Origin: Cirrosporium novae-zelandiae
Taxonomy: Eukaryota
Length of the DNA stretch: 64,000 nt
Direction of reading: 5' to 3'
Assembly (NCBI GenBank): GCA_026023565.1
Contig: JAPETS010000006.1
Coordinates: 682,001-746,000 of the forward strand
Each line of letters begins with the position of its first letter. Within the stretch, counting starts at the first letter, position 1. Made by a program: the position numbers and the translations under genes. The notes beneath the pieces were generated by a model that was given only the letters and a program-made list of their open reading frames with translations, was not told where the DNA came from and did no database searches. Shown here piece by piece: positions 38,140 through 64,000 of this stretch.

Positions 38140-41100
38140 TCACCCTCTCCTCCGTAATCCAAACTCTCCCTTCTTCAATTCTTCTAGCAGCTTCAACGTT
38201 TCTAAATCTGCAAAATTCTCATCCAAACTCATCCTATTCCTGGCTTTGTGGTGGCTCATCCCACTCGCCGCGCCAACACTCTTCGCTCCTGGACTCACTG
38301 TTGAACGTGAACGGGCACTACTCGATGCCCTGCGACTTCCTCCTGATGTTGATTTGGATGTGGAAGCACCCGCACCAATAGCATATGGAAGTACGTGACG
38401 GTTACTGGCACCTGATGAGGGTGATTGTTTGGCGCTTTTACTTATTGTTGGAGATGACCTTTCCCGCTTTGATGAACTTGCCGGAAATTCCTCTGGCACA
38501 TAACGCTCCGCTTGTTTTGGCTGTCTTGAGGAATGTCTGGAGCTACTGCTGGTAGTTGCTGGCGTTTGGACTGTCCTTGCGTTATCTCCCAACGGACTCG
38601 TTTCTTCATTTAATTCTTCAACGTCATTAAGGAGAGATTCGGGTGGTGAGGCGAGAGGTCCAATGGGATGAGGAGGTGTGGCTGACTTTCCTTCGGTTAT
38701 GGCACCACCGGCGGCTGATGGTGAAGCAAGTTCGACTGGTTGCATGGCGCTCGAAGGATCTGTGAGGTTAGGGGAAGGTTTGAAACGGTTTGTCAATAGT
38801 TCATTGTTGGGTATCGTGTGTGATGGCTTGCTACTTTCTGCATGTGAGATGCTCTGCTGATCACTCATATCTTTTTCAGCCGCATTGAAAATCGGCTGGA
38901 CGGTGTCTGTAGCAGCATTTTGTTCCATAGGAGACGTGCTGCGAGCATTGGCATGTTCCTGAAGTTGCTGTTGCAAGGATGTTATATCTGAAGCAACTAC
39001 ACCATTGGTTTCATTGATATCACCGTCTGTCTCTTGGACAGCTGAAGACGTACTCTGAAAGCCGCTATGATCTGATGATCTGTATTCCTCCTTAATTTTC
39101 TTCTTTGCCGGTTCTAGTGCAGGGTCAAGATTATTACTAGATCTCCTCTTGGGGATGATAGACCCTCTTGGTTTCGGTGGCTCTTGAGCTTTAGCTGGAT
39201 CAACATTGCCATTTTCATCGTGTATGCAACGACGTTTGCTTTTACGGCAGTCATCGCAGGCTTTTGTTCTGCCCTTTCTCGAAGCAAAGAAGCTTTCGGG
39301 ACTAAGAGCGGGGGCGGTTGTCCCGGTAGTAGGTTGGGTGTGATTGGTATCGGTGTGATTCGTAGTGGTGGAAGGGGAAACGCCGGTTTGATTAAGACTT
39401 TGGGGATGTGAGATATCCACTTTGCTATCATTGGCTTTGTTGATCCCGGTTGGTGTGTTAGGGGGATTAAAACCTTGATCATTCCTGTGCTTGCATTTCA
39501 TTCTCCGTTTCCTGCAAAAATCACAGGCAACTCGTTTTGGGCCCAATTTAGATGTCTTTGGAGTACTGCGGAACCCCGGTTGAAGGGTCGACTCAGAAGT
39601 AGGCGGAGGAGCTGGTTTTTGCTGTGCTTGCGATTGCATCCTTGCCGATTGCCTTTCTGGAGCAGCACGACACGTGTCAATTCCAGCTTTACGATCGAGT
39701 TCCCTCAGGGCGCGAGCACTAAGTTTCTTTTCCGTGGGTGCATCTTGAGCCACATCTGGAGAATTTTCAGGGTGCGCCCAACTTGGGATCAATTCATCTC
39801 CTCGCTTCCATGCTGCCCAGATCGCAAATGTTTTGATAAGTTCAAGTGGATCCCCAATTCCTTTAGGTATTGACCGCTTTACAGCTTTCAGGGTCTCGGC
39901 GGTTATTCCTTCAGTCAAGTCACCTTTCGCTATCAGGACTGTGCGTAAAAGATATCTTATAAGCCCTGGTAGCCCATCTAACTCGACCTGGGGATAGTAG
40001 CGAGCATTATAGCCTTCTGAACCTGGTTCGGCCTTATTTATTCGCTCGCCGAACTCATAATGAGCAGGTATGTCTCGGGGGAACTTTTCCCCTTGGCAAA
40101 GCGCTTCGCGAACACTGTCTGGAACTGGATCATCCTGAAGATATTTGATTGCGGTATACCACAGGATCTTTTGAAAATAAGGATAACGGAATTTCTTGTC
40201 CATTTTTGTGTTCTTTTCGATCTGGTTAACCCGTATTTGCATGTCATAGCTCATGCGCGTCAGAAAGTTACCTCCAATAACCAAGCTATTTTCAGGGGTC
40301 CAAACTGCGTGTATCCAGCCCGAGGGAATGAGCATTGTATCCCCTTCGGAAAGATCGACCCGGTAACATTCTTTGCATACATCTCCCAGAAAGGTGGTAT
40401 CCTGTTCCTTGGAATTGCACCATTTCTCATACTCCTTGAGATGCTTTTCTTTAGGAGGAATAAAGAAAAATGTTTTCTTGCCCTTGATGATGTGATAGTA
40501 GACGGATGAACCACCAAAGTCGATGTGAAAGTCTGTGTAGCAGTCGGCAACGGACATGAGACAGTAAAATTGGACCCTCGGAAAACTCCCCGTTTGTTTC
40601 AGCTCGTCGGGCCAGACAGAGTCTTGTAGGTCCAAGTCGCGGACGATCTTCGGCCGTCGGACTAGCTTTCCTAGTTTGCTCTGCGAGATTTCTAGACTGA
40701 TTACGTTCCGAACAGCTTTAGAACTGGGATTCTCATAGTATTCGGCCCATCGCCTCATTGTCCACATCTTGTCTTCTCCTTGTTGTGATTTGACATCAAT
40801 CACTTCCACCTTCTCGTCTGGACCGTAGAGGTCGGCGACTCTCCGTACTGTCAAGCCTTGAGGTATAACCATGTCAAGAGCATCCTGGCCACAGTCAATC
40901 GCTGGCTCGTATTCGAAATCATCGGTAGAAACTTCTTCAGACGGTTCTTGTTGGGGTTCGGATTCATAGCTGTAATCCATCAAATCGGGAGCATCCTCGA
41001 GATCCTCAAGATCGGAAATCCATGATGGTATAGGCCGAGGATTCATTGATGCAGGAACGCAAACTGGTTCTGTCATGCCCATACCCTTCTCAAAATATTC

Positions 41101-42522
41101 TGCAGTGACAAGCTCTGGTCTCATACGCGGGAAGTTGTCGGGAAGGAACTTTATCGTTCCATCTTTGATGGGTTTAATGTAGTGATGCTCCGGGTATTCA
41201 TCTGAGCTCTTAACTACACCCTGATTGAGTCCAGCATAGTCAATTGCCGTCCGAGCTCGAGAAGACTTTCGGACAAATGTTGTAGGGCCGTATATTGGTG
41301 TACACTCCTCACAGCTAAACTTATCAACGCTTCTAACATCGCGTTCATTACTGAATCCGACACAAGAGGCGTGAAACCACCTTTTGCAGCCATCACAGCT
41401 TATCCATGAAGTCATTTCACTATCACCTTCAAGCATGGCCCCAGCTTCATTGCATTTTGCGCACGTAGTTTGCGTTGACTGACTGCCGCCCTGCATATTT
41501 ATAGATTCCATTAACGGTTCGCTCGTTTGGTTTGTAGGAGGGTCTTGTATAGCTTCGGTGGGTGCATGTTTGGTAGAAGTTTCGGCAATTATCGCTTTAT
41601 CAGCTTGAGGTGAGGACGGAGGCATTTTGGAAGGCTCTATTGCGGATTTGAGCCGGATGGGACTTGATGAGAGCTTTATGATTTTCGAAGCATCATCAGC
41701 GACTTTAGAATCATCATTTAGATTAGGCGGCAGTTTTGACTCCTTGGAAGTATCATCAATCGTAGGAGGCGTTTTTTGATCATTTGAGATGGATGATGAT
41801 GCGGATTTATGGCTTTCAGTAATAATTGTAGTAGGTTGGACAGGTTCAGTCGTTGCGGTCGGTGTAGGATTTTGTTCATCTGGAATAGTATCTAACGCAT
41901 GAAGTTTTGATTGCGCCCCACTATCCCTTCCGCTGTATATAACTTGCGATTCTCCCTGCGACCAGGAGGAGTTGCGAGGTCGAGAGAAAAGGTGAAGGAG
42001 TAATTCCGCATCCTCGGTGGGGATAGTAACAGAGGCATGGCTCGTAGCAGGTCTTGATTCCGGTGGAGGTAACTCTGGAGATGGAAACTTTTCTGAGCGT
42101 GGTCTTTTCGCGGGTCGTTCATCATTATCCGGGTAGCTTGGGTACTGAGATAGAACAGCCAATACAGGTCGAGGTTCAGGGAAAATCTGCGACCGTGCCT
42201 GAGGACTGGTCGCAAGCGCGATGGATGCGAAAGTATCCATCGCCGAATCAGACCCATTCTGCTTTCCATTGGACAATTGTATCGGAGGTGATACTCGGGA
42301 GTGTGGAGTTTCATTATATTTGACCGTCCCCCAATTTATGTTATATGAAGACTGTTCGAGAGGGTATCGGCCTCTGTTGATGTACGAATCACTGTTCGCG
42401 GATGTGGAGGGGTAATGGGCGAAGGTGGGGGTAATTGGCTCGATAGCGTCACGAGGAGGTGAAGGAGTCCTGGGCCTAGGCTGAGGCAGCTCAAGGCTGA
42501 GTCGAAATCTCGTGGAGGTCAT
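38140..42522 (-). CDS. JHD1: JmjC-domain histone H3K36 demethylase with PHD finger (Jhd1/KDM2 type)
   Basis: Intronless 1460-aa ORF. PHD finger (CAKC...WISCDGCKRWFHASC...CEEC), JmjC Fe-binding YTDFHIDFGG...PSGWIHAVWT, and two C-terminal CxxCRxxxxxCxH motifs. Confidence 0.95.
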   Translation of the reverse strand: MTSTRFRLSLELPQPRPRTPSPPRDAIEPITPTFAHYPSTSANSDSYINRGRYPLEQSSYNINWGTVKYNETPHSRVSPPIQLSNGKQNGSDSAMDTFASIALATSPQARSQIFPEPRPVLAVLSQYPSYPDNDERPAKRPRSEKFPSPELPPPESRPATSHASVTIPTEDAELLLHLFSRPRNSSWSQGESQVIYSGRDSGAQSKLHALDTIPDEQNPTPTATTEPVQPTTIITESHKSASSSISNDQKTPPTIDDTSKESKLPPNLNDDSKVADDASKIIKLSSSPIRLKSAIEPSKMPPSSPQADKAIIAETSTKHAPTEAIQDPPTNQTSEPLMESINMQGGSQSTQTTCAKCNEAGAMLEGDSEMTSWISCDGCKRWFHASCVGFSNERDVRSVDKFSCEECTPIYGPTTFVRKSSRARTAIDYAGLNQGVVKSSDEYPEHHYIKPIKDGTIKFLPDNFPRMRPELVTAEYFEKGMGMTEPVCVPASMNPRPIPSWISDLEDLEDAPDLMDYSYESEPQQEPSEEVSTDDFEYEPAIDCGQDALDMVIPQGLTVRRVADLYGPDEKVEVIDVKSQQGEDKMWTMRRWAEYYENPSSKAVRNVISLEISQSKLGKLVRRPKIVRDLDLQDSVWPDELKQTGSFPRVQFYCLMSVADCYTDFHIDFGGSSVYYHIIKGKKTFFFIPPKEKHLKEYEKWCNSKEQDTTFLGDVCKECYRVDLSEGDTMLIPSGWIHAVWTPENSLVIGGNFLTRMSYDMQIRVNQIEKNTKMDKKFRYPYFQKILWYTAIKYLQDDPVPDSVREALCQGEKFPRDIPAHYEFGERINKAEPGSEGYNARYYPQVELDGLPGLIRYLLRTVLIAKGDLTEGITAETLKAVKRSIPKGIGDPLELIKTFAIWAAWKRGDELIPSWAHPENSPDVAQDAPTEKKLSARALRELDRKAGIDTCRAAPERQSARMQSQAQQKPAPPPTSESTLQPGFRSTPKTSKLGPKRVACDFCRKRRMKCKHRNDQGFNPPNTPTGINKANDSKVDISHPQSLNQTGVSPSTTTNHTDTNHTQPTTGTTAPALSPESFFASRKGRTKACDDCRKSKRRCIHDENGNVDPAKAQEPPKPRGSIIPKRRSSNNLDPALEPAKKKIKEEYRSSDHSGFQSTSSAVQETDGDINETNGVVASDITSLQQQLQEHANARSTSPMEQNAATDTVQPIFNAAEKDMSDQQSISHAESSKPSHTIPNNELLTNRFKPSPNLTDPSSAMQPVELASPSAAGGAITEGKSATPPHPIGPLASPPESLLNDVEELNEETSPLGDNARTVQTPATTSSSSRHSSRQPKQAERYVPEEFPASSSKRERSSPTISKSAKQSPSSGASNRHVLPYAIGAGASTSKSTSGGSRRASSSARSRSTVSPGAKSVGAASGMSHHKARNRMSLDENFADLETLKLLEELKKGEFGLRRRG

Positions 42523-42982
42523 GTTGAGCGGCTAAGAAGGTTGGTTTTGGTGAGGAATTGCGAGTAAAGGACGGAGGTGCCCGTTTGCCGTAAGTAGGTC
42601 TGCGCAGGAACAAATAGAAAGAAAAGATGGAGAGTATGTTATCGTAGCATGGTTCGCCCTCGACTCAGACCATTTATGGAAACAACTCTCGTTGAAATGA
42701 AGGCGAGGGCTTGGTGTGGAGTTGAATTGTTTTAACAATAGAGGGGATTTGCTGTTGCCCGCTTGAGTCGAGGTTCCTTCGCGGGCGGTTGTCTAACGGA
42801 CCTCGCTTAACCGCCCACCCGCCCTTATTACCCGCGGTCATCAATGTTTCCCGCTGTGTTTCCAGCAAGCAAGGCAGTACCTCTCTTGCTTTTACAAGAA
42901 TTCAATCTCTACCACTAATTAAAAGCTCCATACCAACCATCTCTTAAGAGAACCCTTTATACCCTGAGCCCTCCACCAAGAT

Positions 42983-53546: not shown

Positions 53547-54360
53547 TATGAACGGCAGTTCGGATATAGGCCTTTAGTACTGACTTGAAGACGTACCTCT
53601 AGAGCCAGGCAATCGCAAATCTGCTTTGACTAACCGTGGGCCTGTGATGTAACAAGCTGGAACGGATAGCTTGCTTGTTGTGGAGTGCCTCGGTGCCTTT
53701 GGGTTGCAGATACGAAACCAAAGAAAATAGCTCAAACAAGTCAAGGGTGGTGATCAATGGGGGGGGATCACAGGTAGTCAGAGATATTAGTGTACACATT
53801 CAGCAGGTTCGTAAGCATTCCAAATCTTTATTAAAATGGATTTGGGGAATACTAAGGTCGCTTGATATGGTTTGGTAATAGCTGGTATGTGTGTGTGTTG
53901 GTGTTTGGTGGTAGTTACAATGACTGTATTGTATGTATGTATGTAACATGTAACGTCAAATCTGATTAGCGTTTGAATACAAGGTTTCATGCTGAATAAG
54001 CAAAAGTACTTTTTCCCAAATTTCCCGCAAATGATTCCGTCATGGGTGACCCAGAGGGGGATTTCAATGATTCCAATGATTCCAATGATTCCACTACTTG
54101 GAGCTTTTCAGGTAACTTTGCCCGGGTTCGTGACCACAACTCGTCCGAAATAAACTGCCCCGCCCAGCCCAGAAGGTCCAGGTCTCTCATATCTGAGTAA
54201 CCACAAATATCATCACTACCCCCACTACTGCTAACTTATGAGAGAAGATTTCCATCCTCTCTTCTTGATTTCTAAATATCTCTCTCAAATCTTTTCATTC
54301 CACTTTATCATATCTATCAGTCAAATCATTCAAATACAATTCCAGAAATAATCCACAATC

Positions 54361-57026
54361 ATGGCAGACCATGCGTAAGTCCTTCCCATCTGTTGCTTGC
54401 CATCACCCCCACTATGTTTGTCAAAATCTACCTACCCCGTCTACCCCGTCTATCCCATCAATCTCGTTAAGCTGCAAATACCTATATTTAGAGTATTACA
54501 TGCTACTGTAAATAACGACAGCATCATCATCGAAGCTCCCCAATGTCGCCTCTAGATTGGAACGCATTGTCTTGCTCATACTTGCCTCCTTCAGTGCACG
54601 GCGTTTGGCCAACTTGAATGTCGGTGCTGCTCCGATTCAAGACGTCAATGGGTCGTGTCATCATTCCTGTGTTGAAATAAATAATCAGCATGGTATTATG
54701 GATGCTAATATATCTGGGTGTAGAGGATCCTGTGATTTCGGCCTCATTGGGCTGGCGGTGATGGGACAGAATCTGATCATGAATGGTAATCAATAAACCT
54801 CATTACAAGCGTGAACTTCTTTGCTGATACTAGGTTAGGTGCCGATCATGTAGGTATAAGACTATTCGCCCAATGCGATTGAGAATAGATATGATATCTG
54901 TCTTGTGGGCGACAACTTAGACTGATCAATACTGACCTCCATTAGGGATTCAAAGTGTGCGCTTTCAACCGAACTGTCTCAAAAGTTGATCGTTTCCTCG
55001 CAAATGAAGCACAGGGTACATAGATTTCTAATCAATTGAAGAAATAATACTAATTCTAAATAGGTAAATCAATTGTCGGCGCTCATTCGCTCGAAGAATT
55101 TGTATCCAACCTCAAGAAACCTAGAGTTGCTATGCTTCTTGTTCAGATAAGTCCTCTTTTCCAAGCAAGGATTTGCTGAGCATTGTATCTAACAAATCAT
55201 GCACGCTGGTCCCGCTGTAGATGGTATGTAACCTTATTAAACCCACGTATGGAGCCTTTCTCACTGGTTGTTATTGTAGCATTCATCGAGAAATTGGTCC
55301 CTCTTCTGGAAAAGGGTGACATCATAATAGACGGAGGAAACTCCCATTACCCGGACACCACACGGCGACAAAAATATCTGCAAGAGAAGGGTATCCTGTT
55401 TATTGGCACTGGTGTCTCCGGTGGTGAAGAAGGTGCTCGTTTTGGACCTTCCTTGATGCCCGGCGGTAATCCTGAGGCTTGGCCACGTGTCAAGGATATC
55501 TTTCAAAGTATGGCTGCCAAGAGTGACGGCGAACCCTGCTGTGACTGGGTCGGCGACGAGGGTGCTGGTCACTACGTGAAGATGGTGAGCAGACTTGTTT
55601 GTTGCTTTGAATGTTAAACGGAATACTAATTTTTACTTCAAAGGTACACAATGGAATCGAATATGGTGATATGCAATTGTACTTTTTTGAGCGTCTACGA
55701 ACGTCTATGAGATTAACTAATGATGTGTTAGGATCTCCGAAGCTTACGATATCATGAAGAGAGGTAGGTTATTCATCCAACAACCAGACAGCGAGCGAAA
55801 TAATCTAATACACCTATAGGCCTTGGAATGTCATACAAGGAAATGTCTGAAGTATTCGGGTAAGCTCTTACCTTTTTTTTACTGGCTTGGAGAACCCTCA
55901 ACTTACGGTCATTTTTCAATCCAGATCCTGGAACAAGGGCGTGCTTGACAGCTTTTTGATTGAAATCACCAGAGACGTTCTCGTAAGTTTTATGACAAAA
56001 TCTCCATGATTCGGCCCATCCTCACCATTTTTAGGCCTATGTTGATGAAGATGGAACTCCTCTGGTCGAGAAAATCTTGGACAAAGCTGGCCAGAAGGTA
56101 AGCACATTTGCGGTGGTACTCTCACACGCACATCAACTCACGATTATCAACAGGGAACCGGAAAGTGGACCGCCATTAATGCTCTCGATCTCGGCATGCC
56201 AGTTACTCTCGTCACCGAGGCCGTGTTTGCTAGATGTCTGAGCTCATTGAAAGATGAGAGAGGACGAGCGAGCACCCTTCTAAGTGGCCCCAAGCCCAAG
56301 TTCGAGGGTGACAAGAAGGAATTCTTGGCAAACCTCGAACAAGCGCTATATGCTTCCAAGATTATTTCTTATGCGCAAGGCTTTATGCTTATGCAGGATG
56401 TAGGATATGACCTTTATATCTCCTTAGTGGACATGTTCTAACAATATACGTATCAGGCTGCGAAGCAATACGGTTGGAAACTAAACAAGGTTAGTTCACA
56501 TTTACATGTTTGGCGCCTTAACTTTTGCTGATACAATTCAAACTCTAGCCATCTATTGCACTTATGTGGAGAGGCGGCTGCATTATCCGTTCAGTCTTCT
56601 TAAAGGATATCACCAACGCTTACCGCAAAGACCCCGAACTCGAGAACTTGCTCTTCAACGACTTCTTCAACAAAGCTATCCACAATGCCCAATCTGGCTG
56701 GAGATCCACGGTTGCATGGGCCACCATGAATGGCATTCCAACTCCGTAAGTTCAAAAAATCCATGCCACCCCATTCTACTTTCTTTTGAAACTCAACCTA
56801 ATAATTTTGTCCTAGCGCCTTCTCAACCGCCCTCTCATGGTTTGACGGGTACCGCGAGAAGGACCTCCCTGCCAACCTCCTCCAAGCGCAACGAGATTAC
56901 TTTGGTGCCCACACCTTCCGAATCAAGCCCGAATTCGCCAACGATAAATACAAGATCGGCGAGGATATCCACATTAACTGGACTGGTCGTGGTGGAAATG
57001 TCTCCGCCTCCACTTACCAAGCATAG
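54361..57026 (+). CDS. GND1: 6-phosphogluconate dehydrogenase, decarboxylating
   Basis: 16 core exons: 54361-54374, 54724-54785, 54839-54849, 54946-55015, 55064-55146, 55205-55223, 55280-55584, 55644-55678, 55732-55763, 55820-55859, 55925-55982, 56035-56097, 56154-56399, 56457-56489, 56549-56745, 56816-57026. Motifs [45 protein letters not shown] and QRDYFGAH. Intron 5 must be AT-AC to keep the conserved sequence. Confidence 0.96.
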
Positions 57027-60661: not shown

Positions 60662-63600
60662 CTAGTTCTTGGGCATTCGTGTCGACATACTACAGCAAAG
60701 GGGAGTAAAGTCAGTCATAAGTGACTTCTCTGAAAAATGAAATAGTAATAAATTGAAGTAAAGGAAAAGAGAGACATACAAATCGAAAAAGGCAAATTGA
60801 CTTGGATTGCTGCCGAATTCATAAACAAAGCGACTGGCGAGGAAGCTGCCAAAGATTGAGCGAAGATAGTTTTCGGGAACCTAAATAGACAGACATTATT
60901 AGCATTTTCAAATAATATGGCTTGGAAGGAGTGGAGGTATTTGACTGACCCGCTTCAAAATTGTATCCAATCCGATCTTTTCTAGTAGCAACTTTGGCAA
61001 TGCATCCGAGAGTACACTCCTCCGCAACGGAACATTCTCCCATAGTCCGGATTGTTTTAGATCCTCATCCAAGGACGTGATAGCCACACTCAAGACATCA
61101 CTAATGATACTCCTTGGTTTACCAGTCTGCTGGTGCTCCCGCCAAATGGCTTCAAATTCAAGACGTGCATTATTCTTGATGATAGATTGAACTTCTTTAA
61201 CATAGGCATCATAGAAAGCTGGTGCTGTGCCATCATCACTATGACACATATTTTCCACGAAACCTTTGTCATCAAAGGAGAGGGATGCAAGAACCTCAAG
61301 CGATGACGATGTTACGCCGCCCTTGTTAGCAGAAGCATCTTTGTAAAGAACGCATCCTGCCTTTTCAAGACGGATCTTAGCGTCTTGGGTGATAAAGAGG
61401 TTGGCGCCTTCTACAATGTATGGGACGATTGATTTGCCATCAACAATGAGATTGTGCACAGAACTGAGGTCAATGGATTCAGGTCGTCCTCCACATGGTA
61501 CAAAGAGATCGAATGCACGACCTGGGAGTAGGTGGAAGCGATTGCGGAAGATGGTACCGTTAGTGACAATTTCGCCGCTGGGGAGGGGAACATTGGTTTC
61601 ATCGACGAGAACCCGGTAGCCCTGTTTCGAGAGCTTGGAAATGTCGAACTCGGAGATCATAGCACGCTTCTTGGCAAGCCTTACGAGCTCTGCACGATCA
61701 AGACCTTCGGGATCAACAAGAACGCCTGAACCATCCACGATAGCCGTGTATTTTTCATTGCCTAGCAGAATTTCGTTGGAGCCAAGATCACCGTCTGGGC
61801 CACCAGTTTGCAGCTTTCTAATGCTTCCGGGGTCAAGGTTCTTCTTGCGATAAATACCAAGGATATATTCCCGTACCGAGAGTGTGGTCATCCCATACAC
61901 GTCATGAGGGATGCCTCCTAGCTTGGGACTCTTTCCAGTGAAAAACGACTTCCACCAAGGTGCACCTCGCGCTCTTGCATGCTCAGTAGCCCAGTCTACC
62001 AAATCGGCAGTGTTCTCATCTGGACCCATGAACAAAATCTCCTCCTGACCATAGAGATCTACGATCGGGTCCTTTATTCCGGGACTATTTGCTGGCAGAA
62101 GAAGGTCCATAATACTATCAATGTACTTCTCAAATGCAACCTTCACCTTGTCCTGGTGATCCTTATCCAGTAAGATCACACCTTTCGAACCTCCCTCTGG
62201 GATGTCCTTGTTCTTGCGCTGTTGAGTGTTGGCAAGATTGTAGTTTTCGTCGAATATCGAGCGTGCATTGATAGAATAGGCTTCGGCATTTCTTGACTTA
62301 ACAATACGAATACCACCCCTTGCAATATCCCGGAATCGTAAATGAAAACCACGGAACTCTGAGCTGATAACCAAGAACATACCGAAGAGGGGCTGGGGGT
62401 ATTCAGCCGGAGGTAAGAAGTCGGGTTTGAGTCGGAAACTCAAAGCGACCTTTGTGGGGGTGTAGAAATTGGTTTTAAGCACCGCCTTATTAAAGACTCG
62501 GAATGCTGTCAATACCAACCCGTCGTGCTCGTTCTCTACCGTCTTGGCAATTATAGTCTGAAGCTCTGTATCACCTAGGACCTTGTCAACCTTCAAGCGA
62601 AGGTAACTAAGTGTGGGAATGAAGTCGTCTTGCTGTCCACGCGTCTGAACGTAATGGGTATCCGCAAAGTTCAGGTACAGCGAGTGTATTAAATCAGGGT
62701 ATTTGTAAATAATCTCAAGAATGTAATCAGGGGTAAAGGTCTCAGTTCGAAATCGTTTCTTGATCTTTGAAAGTAGTTCTGCATGAACACTGTTGCTGGG
62801 ATTCAGCAGTGAGACCAAGGAAGTATATTCCGATCCCAAGCGGTTCAGGAAATGTTGTGTGAACACCCAGACGCAATGAGCATAAATTGTTTCTTGCAAA
62901 CTTAGACGACCCCTTGCAAAGTGGCCTTGTAGTTTGTTTTGGGGAACGCAGTATAGCAACGACACTTCCTTCATGATCTGGTGGATCGAAGACTCGATAG
63001 GAGGATGCTTTTCCTGGCCATTAGGTAGAGGACGTAGATACAAAGACATGATAGTCATCCCATTGGAGAATTGCTCCACGTATTTTCTCGAACTAGTGAG
63101 ACCGTAATAATGATAAAGGTCGGAAAGGGCGCTGCATAGGCCCATTGCTGATCCTTGTTTGTACGCAATCACAAGCCTTTTCTCCCTGCTACCCTCAACT
63201 TCGAACATTTCGATGACAGGCCCTGCTCGCACAATCCCATGAGTAATAACCTCCTGGTAGATGGTCTTGGTGTTTTTGGTGGCCTTTTGAAGAAATCTCT
63301 TGTCGCCAATAACTTCAATGTTTGTTTCCTCCGGACTTGGATCAGCATTCGCAAAATTACATTTGTACACAAACCAGCATCGCAGAGATTGGTTGTTATC
63401 TCCTGGGAGAGCGCTTGAAGAACGAAATGTTTCAACACGATAACTGGTTTTGGCATTCGAGCCATTGAGGTATTTTTCGTCTATTCGTGTCTCGTATCTC
63501 GGTCCCTCGATATTGGCAATTCCAGGTCTACTCGTATCAATATACACCGCGTGGTCTGCATCTTCTCTATCCAGGCGAATGCCCAAGCGGCCATCATCTC

Positions 63601-63774
63601 TTGCATACGCAGCCACCTTGGCAGCATATAGGGAAAGAATTTGGTTCACAATTGACTCGGCCGTCTCTGTTTGGAAAAAGCTATCGTCAATGCCTAGCAT
63701 ATTGTAAAACCATTCGGTCTCGGATTGGACAAATTCAGTGGGAATGAAGTTCTTGGTTTCGAGAATGTCCATCA
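60662..63774 (-). CDS. GDH2: NAD-specific glutamate dehydrogenase (large, Gdh2/GdhB type); first exon(s) lie beyond the right edge
   Basis: Large exon 63774-approx. 60949 plus two small 3' exons ending FMSTRMPKN* at 60662. Motifs GFHLRFRDIARGGIR, QQRKNKDIPEGGSKG, GPDENTA, TGGPDGDLGSN and KDASANKGGVTSSSLE. Confidence 0.96.
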
Positions 63775-64000
63775 CTAAAAGACCAATTAGTATAATTTCA
63801 AGATCTTATAGAAAATCACCAAAACATGAGATAGAAATTCATAGTTCGTCTGGTTGAAAGCCGTATCAACACCTAGACTTGTGTAAATGCGATTCACCTG
63901 ATAGGAAATCTAGCACACAAAGACTCTAGGGGCGTTTACAGCCTACATGACTTGCACTTCGACCACACATTTTGTTTAATCTTCACTGGGGGGGGCTGAT

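What the first reader, a model, noticed from the sequence alone, without database searches (positions are those of the whole stretch)
55147..55204. AT-AC intron with U2-type (major spliceosome) signals inside GND1
Seen: the exon ends ...ATG CTT CTT GTT CAG (MLLVQ) at 55146. It is followed by ATAAGT, a CTAAC branch point at 55189-55193 and CATGCAC ending at 55204, then GCT GGT CCC GCT GTA GAT G (AGPAVD). Removing exactly this 58-nt AT...AC segment restores the conserved 6PGD motif MLLVx-AGxxVD. The donor is the canonical GTAAGT with G1>A, and the acceptor is YAG with the terminal G>C, i.e. a compensatory terminal pair. Established: the U12 donor is RTATCCTT and most ascomycetes lack the minor spliceosome, so this does not look like a U12 intron. 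Inference: this is a rare U2-dependent AT-AC intron in a core metabolic gene, possibly a splicing-rate control point. A GT-AG alternative (GTCCTC at 55151 to AG at 55220) is in frame but deletes AGPAVD, so gene finders would probably mis-annotate this site.
Basis: partly seen in the sequence, partly recalled or inferred. Interest (0 to 1): 0.85.

Follow-up and report, generated by a model that had tools for sequence, protein, structure and literature searches.

The report
AT-AC intron in fungal GND1
A 58-base intron in the 6-phosphogluconate dehydrogenase gene of an ascomycete fungus begins with AT and ends with AC instead of GT and AG but otherwise looks like an ordinary intron; this is a rare, already known kind, and it led the public annotation to cut off the front of the protein.

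Summary
The window holds a 16-exon 6-phosphogluconate dehydrogenase gene (54361-57026, + strand). It is 100% identical over exon 7 to a public protein named gnd1 of Cirrosporium novae-zelandiae.

Fourteen introns are GT-AG. Intron 5 (55147-55204, 58 nt) is AT...AC.
- Of 3296 in-frame, stop-free junctions tried, 55146|55205 scores best against a profile of 56 orthologues. The best GT-AG or GC-AG choice is 18.5 bits worse and loses the AG..VD motif, which all 120 listed homologues carry.
- Apart from its two end bases, the intron resembles its 14 siblings in length, donor and branch site. It matches the U12 donor rule at only 3 of 8 positions.
- An independent re-assembly of reads shows the same bases.

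No RNA run was available, so splicing itself is not shown.

U2-type AT-AC ("type II") introns are known in animals, were proposed for fungal xylanase genes, and appear at about 0.03% in RNA-supported fungal gene models. This is therefore a new member of a known kind. The "rate control point" idea is untested.

The public protein does fail here: it starts at an ATG inside the intron and lacks 80 N-terminal residues.

The parts
54361..57026 (+). 6-phosphogluconate dehydrogenase gene (GND1). The model has 16 exons, 15 introns and 492 codons plus a stop.
   Evidence: The model was built from coordinates. It is 83-85% identical over 475-491 residues to full-length orthologues. Exon 7 is 100% identical to the public protein P0001, named gnd1 of Cirrosporium novae-zelandiae, which carries Pfam PF03446 and PF00393.
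55064..55146 (+). Exon 5, ending with the codons for MLLVQ.
   Evidence: Residues 9-80 of the model (exons 2-5) are on average 78.8% identical to 56 full-length homologues.
55147..55204 (+). Intron 5: 58 nt, phase 0, with AT...AC ends.
   Evidence: Retaining it gives a stop codon after 10 further codons.
55147..55152 (+). 5' splice site ATAAGT, which is the U2-type consensus with A in place of G at +1.
   Evidence: With position +1 masked, the donor score is 7.76 bits on a matrix built from the 14 sibling introns, which range from 4.08 to 9.9. It matches the U12 rule RTATCCTT at 3 of 8 positions.
55188..55193 (+). Branch-site motif TCTAAC. The branch A is at 55192, 12 nt from the intron end.
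   Evidence: In the 13 of 14 sibling introns where the script found a branch motif, the A lies 10-17 nt from the end.
55202..55204 (+). 3' end CAC (a YAG with the last G replaced by C).
   Evidence: With the last base masked, the acceptor-side score is 1.70 bits, at the bottom of the sibling range of 1.71-7.21.
55205..55223 (+). 19-nt micro-exon encoding AGPAVD plus the first base of the next codon.
   Evidence: All 120 of 120 listed homologues contain AG..VD. The identical QAGPAVD occurs in P0003, P0004 and P0013.
55224..55279 (+). Intron 6, an ordinary GT-AG intron (GTATGT...TAG) of 56 nt.
   Evidence: The public model P0001 uses it too.
55280..55584 (+). Exon 7 (305 nt), used as the query for homologues and related loci.
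55199..55201 (+). ATG inside intron 5, used as the start codon by the public annotation.
   Evidence: P0001 begins MH followed by AGPAVD. Its residues 3-414 equal model residues 81-492, 412 of 412.
55151..55156 (+). Rival GT donor, GTCCTC.
   Evidence: Its donor score is -4.83 bits on the sibling matrix. Paired with the AG at 55219-55220 it is in frame but loses AGPAVD.

Best explanation
Intron 5 of GND1 is a natural U2-type ('type II') AT-AC intron. The ordinary major spliceosome recognises it through its normal donor (ATAAGT pairs with U1 and U6 at every position except +1) and its normal TCTAAC branch site. The first step proceeds as usual. In the second step, the usual non-Watson-Crick contact between the first and last intron bases (G with G) is replaced by the compatible pair A with C, so exon 5 (ending at 55146) is joined to the 19-nt micro-exon (starting at 55205). 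The result is a full-length 6-phosphogluconate dehydrogenase with an intact NADP-binding domain.

Shown here: the sequence, the uniqueness of this junction, the intron's likeness to its siblings, and its unlikeness to U12 signals. Inferred: that it is spliced, at what efficiency, and by which spliceosome.
For: (1) The junction 55146|55205 is the best of 3296 in-frame, stop-free junctions against a profile of 56 orthologues. The 19 GT-AG/GC-AG options are at least 18.5 bits worse and lose AG..VD, which 120 of 120 listed homologues carry.

(2) Intron 5 matches its 14 GT-AG siblings.
- Length is 58 nt; 13 siblings are 48-96 nt and one is 349 nt.
- The donor scores 7.76 bits without +1, within the sibling range of 4.08-9.9.
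- The branch A is 12 nt from the end; siblings have 10-17 nt.

(3) It matches the U12 donor rule at 3 of 8 positions and the recalled U12 branch consensus at no more than 5 of 8. Two surveys report no minor introns or snRNAs in Ascomycota (passages).

(4) The rest of the gene is intact. There is no stop or frameshift in 492 codons, all 28 terminal dinucleotides of the other introns are canonical, and the exons upstream of the intron are 78.8% identical on average to orthologues.

(5) A Logan contig of run X1 (7884 nt, word depth 348.6) covers the whole gene with 0 differences.

(6) Published precedent (passages): U2-type AT-AC introns occur in human (15), mouse (6) and fly (3). A G-to-A change at the first base is rescued by a G-to-C change at the last base in yeast and human, though less efficiently.

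(7) Only 0.09% of random double hits on terminal splice bases would give this pair.
Against: - There is no transcript evidence of any kind.
- Published rescue of A-first by C-last is described as less efficient, which sits oddly with a highly used core gene.
- With the last base masked, the acceptor-side score (1.70 bits) is the lowest in the gene.
- Run X1 may be the very sample the window was assembled from, so the base check is independent of the assembler but not of the reads.
- The whole genome was not available. Neither the absence of minor snRNAs in this organism nor the absence of a second GND copy was tested.
- None of the 9 related loci inspected has an intron at this position, so there is no comparative support that the intron or its ends are conserved.
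Confidence: 0.75

Rival explanations
1. The intron is crippled. The A at +1 and the C at the end make splicing fail or run at a trickle, so this GND1 copy is dying or dead and another copy elsewhere in the genome does the work.
For: A-first/C-last pairs splice less efficiently in published mutant work (passage). The acceptor side scores lowest in the gene. The genome was not available to exclude a paralogue.
Against: There is no stop or frameshift in 492 codons, and all other splice ends are canonical. The upstream exons are still 78.8% identical to orthologues. Decay would very rarely hit exactly the one compensating pair, 15 of 15930 double-hit outcomes. No second Cirrosporium protein appears among the 120 best hits, all at least 80% identical over exon 7; this is weak evidence.
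Confidence: 0.1
2. The cell uses cryptic GT-AG sites: 55151 to 55220, or 55151 to 55279 skipping the micro-exon. This would make a protein without AGPAVD.
For: Both junctions are in frame and free of stops.
Against: The donor GTCCTC scores -4.83 bits on the gene's own matrix. The first option leaves a 3-nt exon. The profile score drops by 18.7 to 21.7 bits. The lost motif is present in 120 of 120 homologues and lies in the NAD-binding domain (Pfam PF03446, precomputed for P0001).
Confidence: 0.05
3. Sequence error: the true intron is GT-AG, and both end bases are wrong in the assembly.
For: The record is labelled a metagenome-assembled genome.
Against: An independent contig build of run X1 gives the same bases, at word depth 348.6 with 0 differences over 2669 bases. 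Two errors would have to fall exactly on the two end bases and give exactly A and C.
Confidence: 0.03
4. It is a U12-type AT-AC intron removed by a minor spliceosome.
For: It has AT-AC ends, and its branch motif lies 12 nt from the 3' end, a spacing that also suits U12 introns (recalled).
Against: The donor matches RTATCCTT at 3 of 8 positions, and the best match to the recalled U12 branch consensus is 5 of 8. Defining features of U12 introns are the donor and branch sequences, not the ends (passage). Minor introns and snRNAs are reported absent from Ascomycota (passages). No snRNA of any kind was found in the 64-kb window, which says little.
Confidence: 0.02

Closest known systems
U2-type AT-AC ('AT-AC type II') introns, e.g. 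human SCN4A and SCN5A; 15 human, 6 mouse and 3 fly cases in SpliceRack (Sheth et al. 2006, PMC1557818; passages read)
   Same: AT...AC ends, with a donor that is a good U2-type site apart from +1. There is no U12 donor or branch box. The implied mechanism is first-base/last-base compensation.
   Different: Those cases have experimental or cross-species support; this one has none. This one is in an ascomycete that should have no minor spliceosome at all. It is only 58 nt long and abuts a 19-nt micro-exon.
AT-AC introns proposed in xylanase genes of filamentous fungi (Wu and Krainer 1997, known to me only through the citation in PMC1557818; the paper itself was not held), and AT-AC junctions in RNA-supported fungal gene models, 0.03% (SnowyOwl, PMC4084796; passage)
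   Same: The same kind of intron in Dikarya fungi.
   Different: The gene and lineage differ (Xylobotryomycetes). I found no paper that pairs 6-phosphogluconate dehydrogenase with AT-AC (0 papers).
Engineered G1-to-A plus last-G-to-C double mutants of yeast and human introns (cited in PMC1557818, passage; the original papers are recalled, not read)
   Same: The same pair of end bases on an otherwise normal U2-type intron.
   Different: Those are laboratory mutants with reduced efficiency. This is a natural allele in an otherwise intact core gene.
U12-type AT-AC introns
   Same: The terminal dinucleotides only.
   Different: The donor and branch sequences do not fit. The host phylum is reported to lack the machinery.

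Membership tests
U2-type AT-AC (type II) intron | The intron begins with AT and ends with AC, at the junction that yields the correct mRNA. | tested here: met
   The junction is the unique best of 3296 candidates. Shifting it by one base either way changes the protein, because the flanking bases differ (rows).
U2-type AT-AC (type II) intron | The donor is a good U2-type site apart from +1 (criterion of Sheth et al., passage). | tested here: met
   The donor is ATAAGT. It scores 7.76 bits with +1 masked on a matrix of the 14 sibling donors, which range from 4.08 to 9.9. The matrix is local, not SpliceRack's.
U2-type AT-AC (type II) intron | No U12-type donor or branch box. | tested here: met
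   3 of 8 matches to RTATCCTT, and at most 5 of 8 to the recalled U12 branch consensus.
U2-type AT-AC (type II) intron | The junction is present in mature mRNA. | not testable with these tools
   No run on record as RNA was available for this DNA.
U2-type AT-AC (type II) intron | Splicing depends on U1, U2, U4 and U6, not on U11, U12, U4atac and U6atac. | not testable with these tools
   This needs snRNA depletion or genetics. Literature only: Ascomycota lack minor splicing. This genome is not held.
U12-type (minor) intron | Conserved donor RTATCCTT. | tested here: not met
   3 of 8 positions match. The rule is quoted in PMC2846911.
U12-type (minor) intron | Minor snRNA genes in the genome. 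| not tested
   No genome is held. The window alone has no Rfam match.
6-phosphogluconate dehydrogenase (decarboxylating) | NAD_binding_2 (PF03446) plus 6PGD (PF00393) domains, and full-length similarity to named orthologues. | tested here: met
   Both Pfam domains are precomputed for P0001. The model is 83-85% identical to full-length orthologues.

The most novel reading that the evidence does not exclude
This is not a one-off. Cirrosporium, or Xylobotryomycetes as a whole, may tolerate or favour A-first/C-last introns genome-wide, for instance through a change in the second-step machinery. Alternatively, this intron may be kept as a deliberately slow step that throttles entry into the pentose phosphate pathway. 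A wilder variant is that it is the converted remnant of a minor-class intron from before Dikarya lost the minor spliceosome. None of these is excluded, because neither the genome nor any RNA could be examined. Against the remnant idea, none of the 9 related loci inspected has an intron at this position.
Probability: 0.06. Interest if true: 0.65.

Novelty: new member of a known kind. Interest (0 to 1): 0.35.

Why it matters
It is a clean, sequence-level example of a major-spliceosome AT-AC intron in a phylum without a minor spliceosome. It sits in a single essential-pathway gene and lies next to a 19-nt micro-exon.

In practice, standard gene finding failed on it. The public protein lacks its first 80 residues, including the glycine-rich start of the NADP-binding fold. 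Homology-guided re-annotation that allows AT-AC ends would repair such models.

For splicing biology, it offers a natural substrate for measuring how well a fungal spliceosome handles the A/C end pair. It adds nothing new in principle.

Tried and rejected
- **Whole genome.** None is held. There was therefore no search for minor snRNAs, for other AT-AC introns genome-wide, or for a second GND copy.
- **RNA evidence.** No RNA holder is listed. The one holder, X1, is DNA and may be the source sample. X2 and X3 gave only scattered pieces of conserved exons, mostly under 90% alike.
- **Rfam on the window.** 0 matches.
- **Orthologous introns.**
  - 160 loci were fetched with exon 7; most appear to be intron-less bacterial genes.
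  - In one search, 19 of the 160 had a longest match under 350 residues. I inspected 9 of these 19.
  - All 9 read straight through the intron-5 and intron-6 positions. Four (L001, L002, L005, L025) appear to break at the position of the window's intron 4.
  - Whether an ancestor had GT-AG here therefore cannot be told.
- **Pattern scans for other AT-AC introns in the window.** With donor, branch and end motifs alone, the A...C count (26) was no different from the other 15 first/last base pairs (9-41), and G...G (30) was not enriched either, so the scan has no power. Adding an open-frame filter gave hundreds of hits for every pair. Both scans were dropped.
- **Introner-like repeats.** No GND1 intron matches elsewhere in the window beyond 18 nt.
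- **dN/dS against four fungal loci.** This was unusable: synonymous sites are saturated, and my ungapped alignment ran across an intron. I replaced it with the amino-acid identity of the upstream exons.
- **Literature.** One search returned unrelated papers. One search returned one irrelevant paper. The 'AT-AC' hits in PMC3091305 were polyketide-synthase domain strings. Wu and Krainer 1997 is not held.
- **Earlier findings of this scan.** Nothing on this genome, and one unrelated note on GC-donor introns in an amoeba.

Full report
**What is there.** The + strand from 54361 to 57026 holds a 6-phosphogluconate dehydrogenase gene. I modelled it as 16 exons and 15 introns, giving 492 codons.
- Exon 7, translated, is 100% identical to a public 414-residue protein named gnd1 of Cirrosporium novae-zelandiae, a member of Xylobotryomycetes in Pezizomycotina.
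- The full model is 83-85% identical over 475-491 residues to full-length fungal orthologues.
- Fourteen introns are GT-AG.
- Intron 5 (55147-55204, 58 nt, phase 0) begins ATAAGT, has TCTAAC at 55188-55193 and ends CAC.
- It is followed by a 19-nt exon that encodes AGPAVD, and then by an ordinary GTATGT...TAG intron.

**Is this junction the real one?** I enumerated every donor position from 55100 to 55223 and every acceptor up to 55319, with any dinucleotides, both keeping and skipping the micro-exon.
- I kept the 3296 pairs that are in frame and free of stops, and scored each protein against a profile built from 56 full-length homologues.
- The junction 55146|55205 (AT-AC) is the top score at 1005.2 bits.
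- The next rows are the same 58-nt deletion slid by a few bases. They have end pairs of no known class (GA-CA, AG-GC and so on) and a changed residue.
- The best of the 19 GT-AG or GC-AG pairs scores 986.7 bits, and all 19 lose the AG..VD motif.
- That motif is present in 120 of 120 listed homologues. 111 fit the stricter pattern that includes the preceding hydrophobic strand. The other 9 either start at or after that strand or differ in it at one position.
- If the intron is retained, the frame stops after 10 further codons.

**Is it an ordinary intron apart from its ends?** Yes, on the donor and branch side.
- Its length of 58 nt lies within the 48-96 nt of 13 siblings; the first intron is 349 nt.
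- With +1 masked, its donor scores 7.76 bits on a matrix of the 14 sibling donors, which range from 4.08 to 9.9.
- Its branch A is 12 nt from the end, against 10-17 nt in the 13 siblings where my pattern found a branch motif.
- On the acceptor side, with the last base masked, it scores 1.70 bits. That is the lowest in the gene (siblings 1.71-7.21) and counts mildly against efficient use.
- The rival GT donor at 55151 scores -4.83 bits.

**U2 or U12?** The donor matches the minor-intron rule RTATCCTT (quoted in PMC2846911) at 3 of 8 positions. No 8-mer in the last 40 nt matches the recalled minor branch consensus at more than 5 of 8.
- A review states that the donor and branch sequences define minor introns, not the ends (PMC3584512, passage).
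- Two surveys report no minor introns or snRNAs in Ascomycota (PMC10639083, passage; PMC2846911, passage).
- I could not check this organism itself, because no genome is held. The window has no Rfam match.

**Are the bases right?** A contig built independently by Logan from run X1 is 7884 nt long with a word depth of 348.6. It covers all 2669 bases of the gene with no difference. X1 may be the sample the window came from, so this excludes an assembler artefact but not a peculiarity of that sample.

**Is the gene alive?**
- There is no stop or frameshift, and all 28 other terminal dinucleotides are canonical.
- The exons upstream of the intron (residues 9-80) are on average 78.8% identical to 56 homologues, with a range of 58-88%.
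- If two random substitutions hit the 60 terminal splice positions, only 15 of 15930 outcomes give first-base A with last-base C in one intron.
- Decay is therefore a poor explanation for this particular pair.

**Comparison with other fungi.**
- Of the 160 loci fetched with exon 7, most are uninterrupted, apparently bacterial genes.
- Among the 9 split or short loci I inspected, all read straight through the positions of introns 5 and 6.
- Four appear to share the position of intron 4.
- The intron is thus not widespread, and I cannot say whether its ancestor was GT-AG.

**Public annotation.** The public protein starts MH and then continues AGPAVD. Its start codon is the ATG at 55199, inside intron 5. 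Its residues 3-414 equal my model residues 81-492. It therefore confirms exons 6-16 independently, and it shows that the gene finder could not cross the AT-AC intron. The published protein lacks the first 80 residues.

**Mechanism.** The best-supported account has three steps.
- The major spliceosome binds a normal donor and a normal branch site.
- The first step is not prevented by A at +1.
- The second step, which normally relies on a contact between the first and last G, is satisfied by the A/C pair.

This rests on published work that I saw only as a citing passage: a first-base G-to-A change is rescued by a last-base G-to-C change in yeast and human, less efficiently (PMC1557818). The original papers are recalled, not read.

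**What is known.**
- U2-type AT-AC introns were counted at 15 in human, 6 in mouse and 3 in fly, and were proposed for xylanase genes of filamentous fungi (PMC1557818).
- Non-U12 'other AT-AC' introns are tabulated in EST-based sets from species without minor snRNAs (PMC2846911, section 11).
- RNA-supported models of three fungi show 0.03% AT-AC (PMC4084796, passage).
- AT-AC is rarer in fungal annotations than in those of plants or animals (PMC7072748, passages).
- No paper in the library pairs 6-phosphogluconate dehydrogenase with AT-AC (0 papers).

**Verdict.** This is a new member of a known kind. The U2-type reading is well supported in silico but unproven at the RNA level. The rate-control idea is untested.

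Noticed in passing
window 54595-54654: There is a probable extra coding exon inside what I modelled as the 349-nt first intron. Spliced in with GT-AG ends (acceptor before 54595, weak donors after 54651 or 54654), it adds an N-terminal stretch. That stretch resembles the extension carried by the 508-509-residue orthologues but not by the 490-492-residue ones. It may be an alternative exon.
   Followed up: partly
window 54839-54849: There is a second, even smaller micro-exon of 11 nt. It encodes the ADH residues of the conserved N(G/A)ADHGF stretch and is flanked by GT-AG introns of 53 and 96 nt.
   Followed up: partly
window 54361-57026 compared with 38143-42531 and 60911-63805: GND1 has 15 or more introns in 2.7 kb, with exons of 11-305 nt. 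Neighbouring genes have very long uninterrupted frames: a JmjC/PHD protein of 1463 codons and an NAD-glutamate dehydrogenase of 965 codons. Other fungal GND loci fetched show only a few breaks. The reason for this local intron richness is unknown.
   Followed up: partly
window 54060-54095: A short tandem repeat of a 9-nt unit, about three and a half copies, lies about 270 nt upstream of the GND1 start codon (seen).
   Followed up: no
loci L081-L160 (genome contigs) and most of L001-L080: Bacterial 6-phosphogluconate dehydrogenases from many phyla (Bryobacteraceae, Spirochaetales, Chlamydiae, Vibrio and others) are 72-85% identical to this fungal exon 7 at the protein level. That is unusually high for a bacterium-fungus pair.
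   Followed up: no
proteins P0032, P0035, P0092, P0112, P0116: Several public GND1 models from lichen-forming fungi are N-terminally short (439 or 475 residues). They begin at internal methionines close to the positions of the window's first introns, which suggests that the 5' exons of this gene are often missed by annotation.
   Followed up: no
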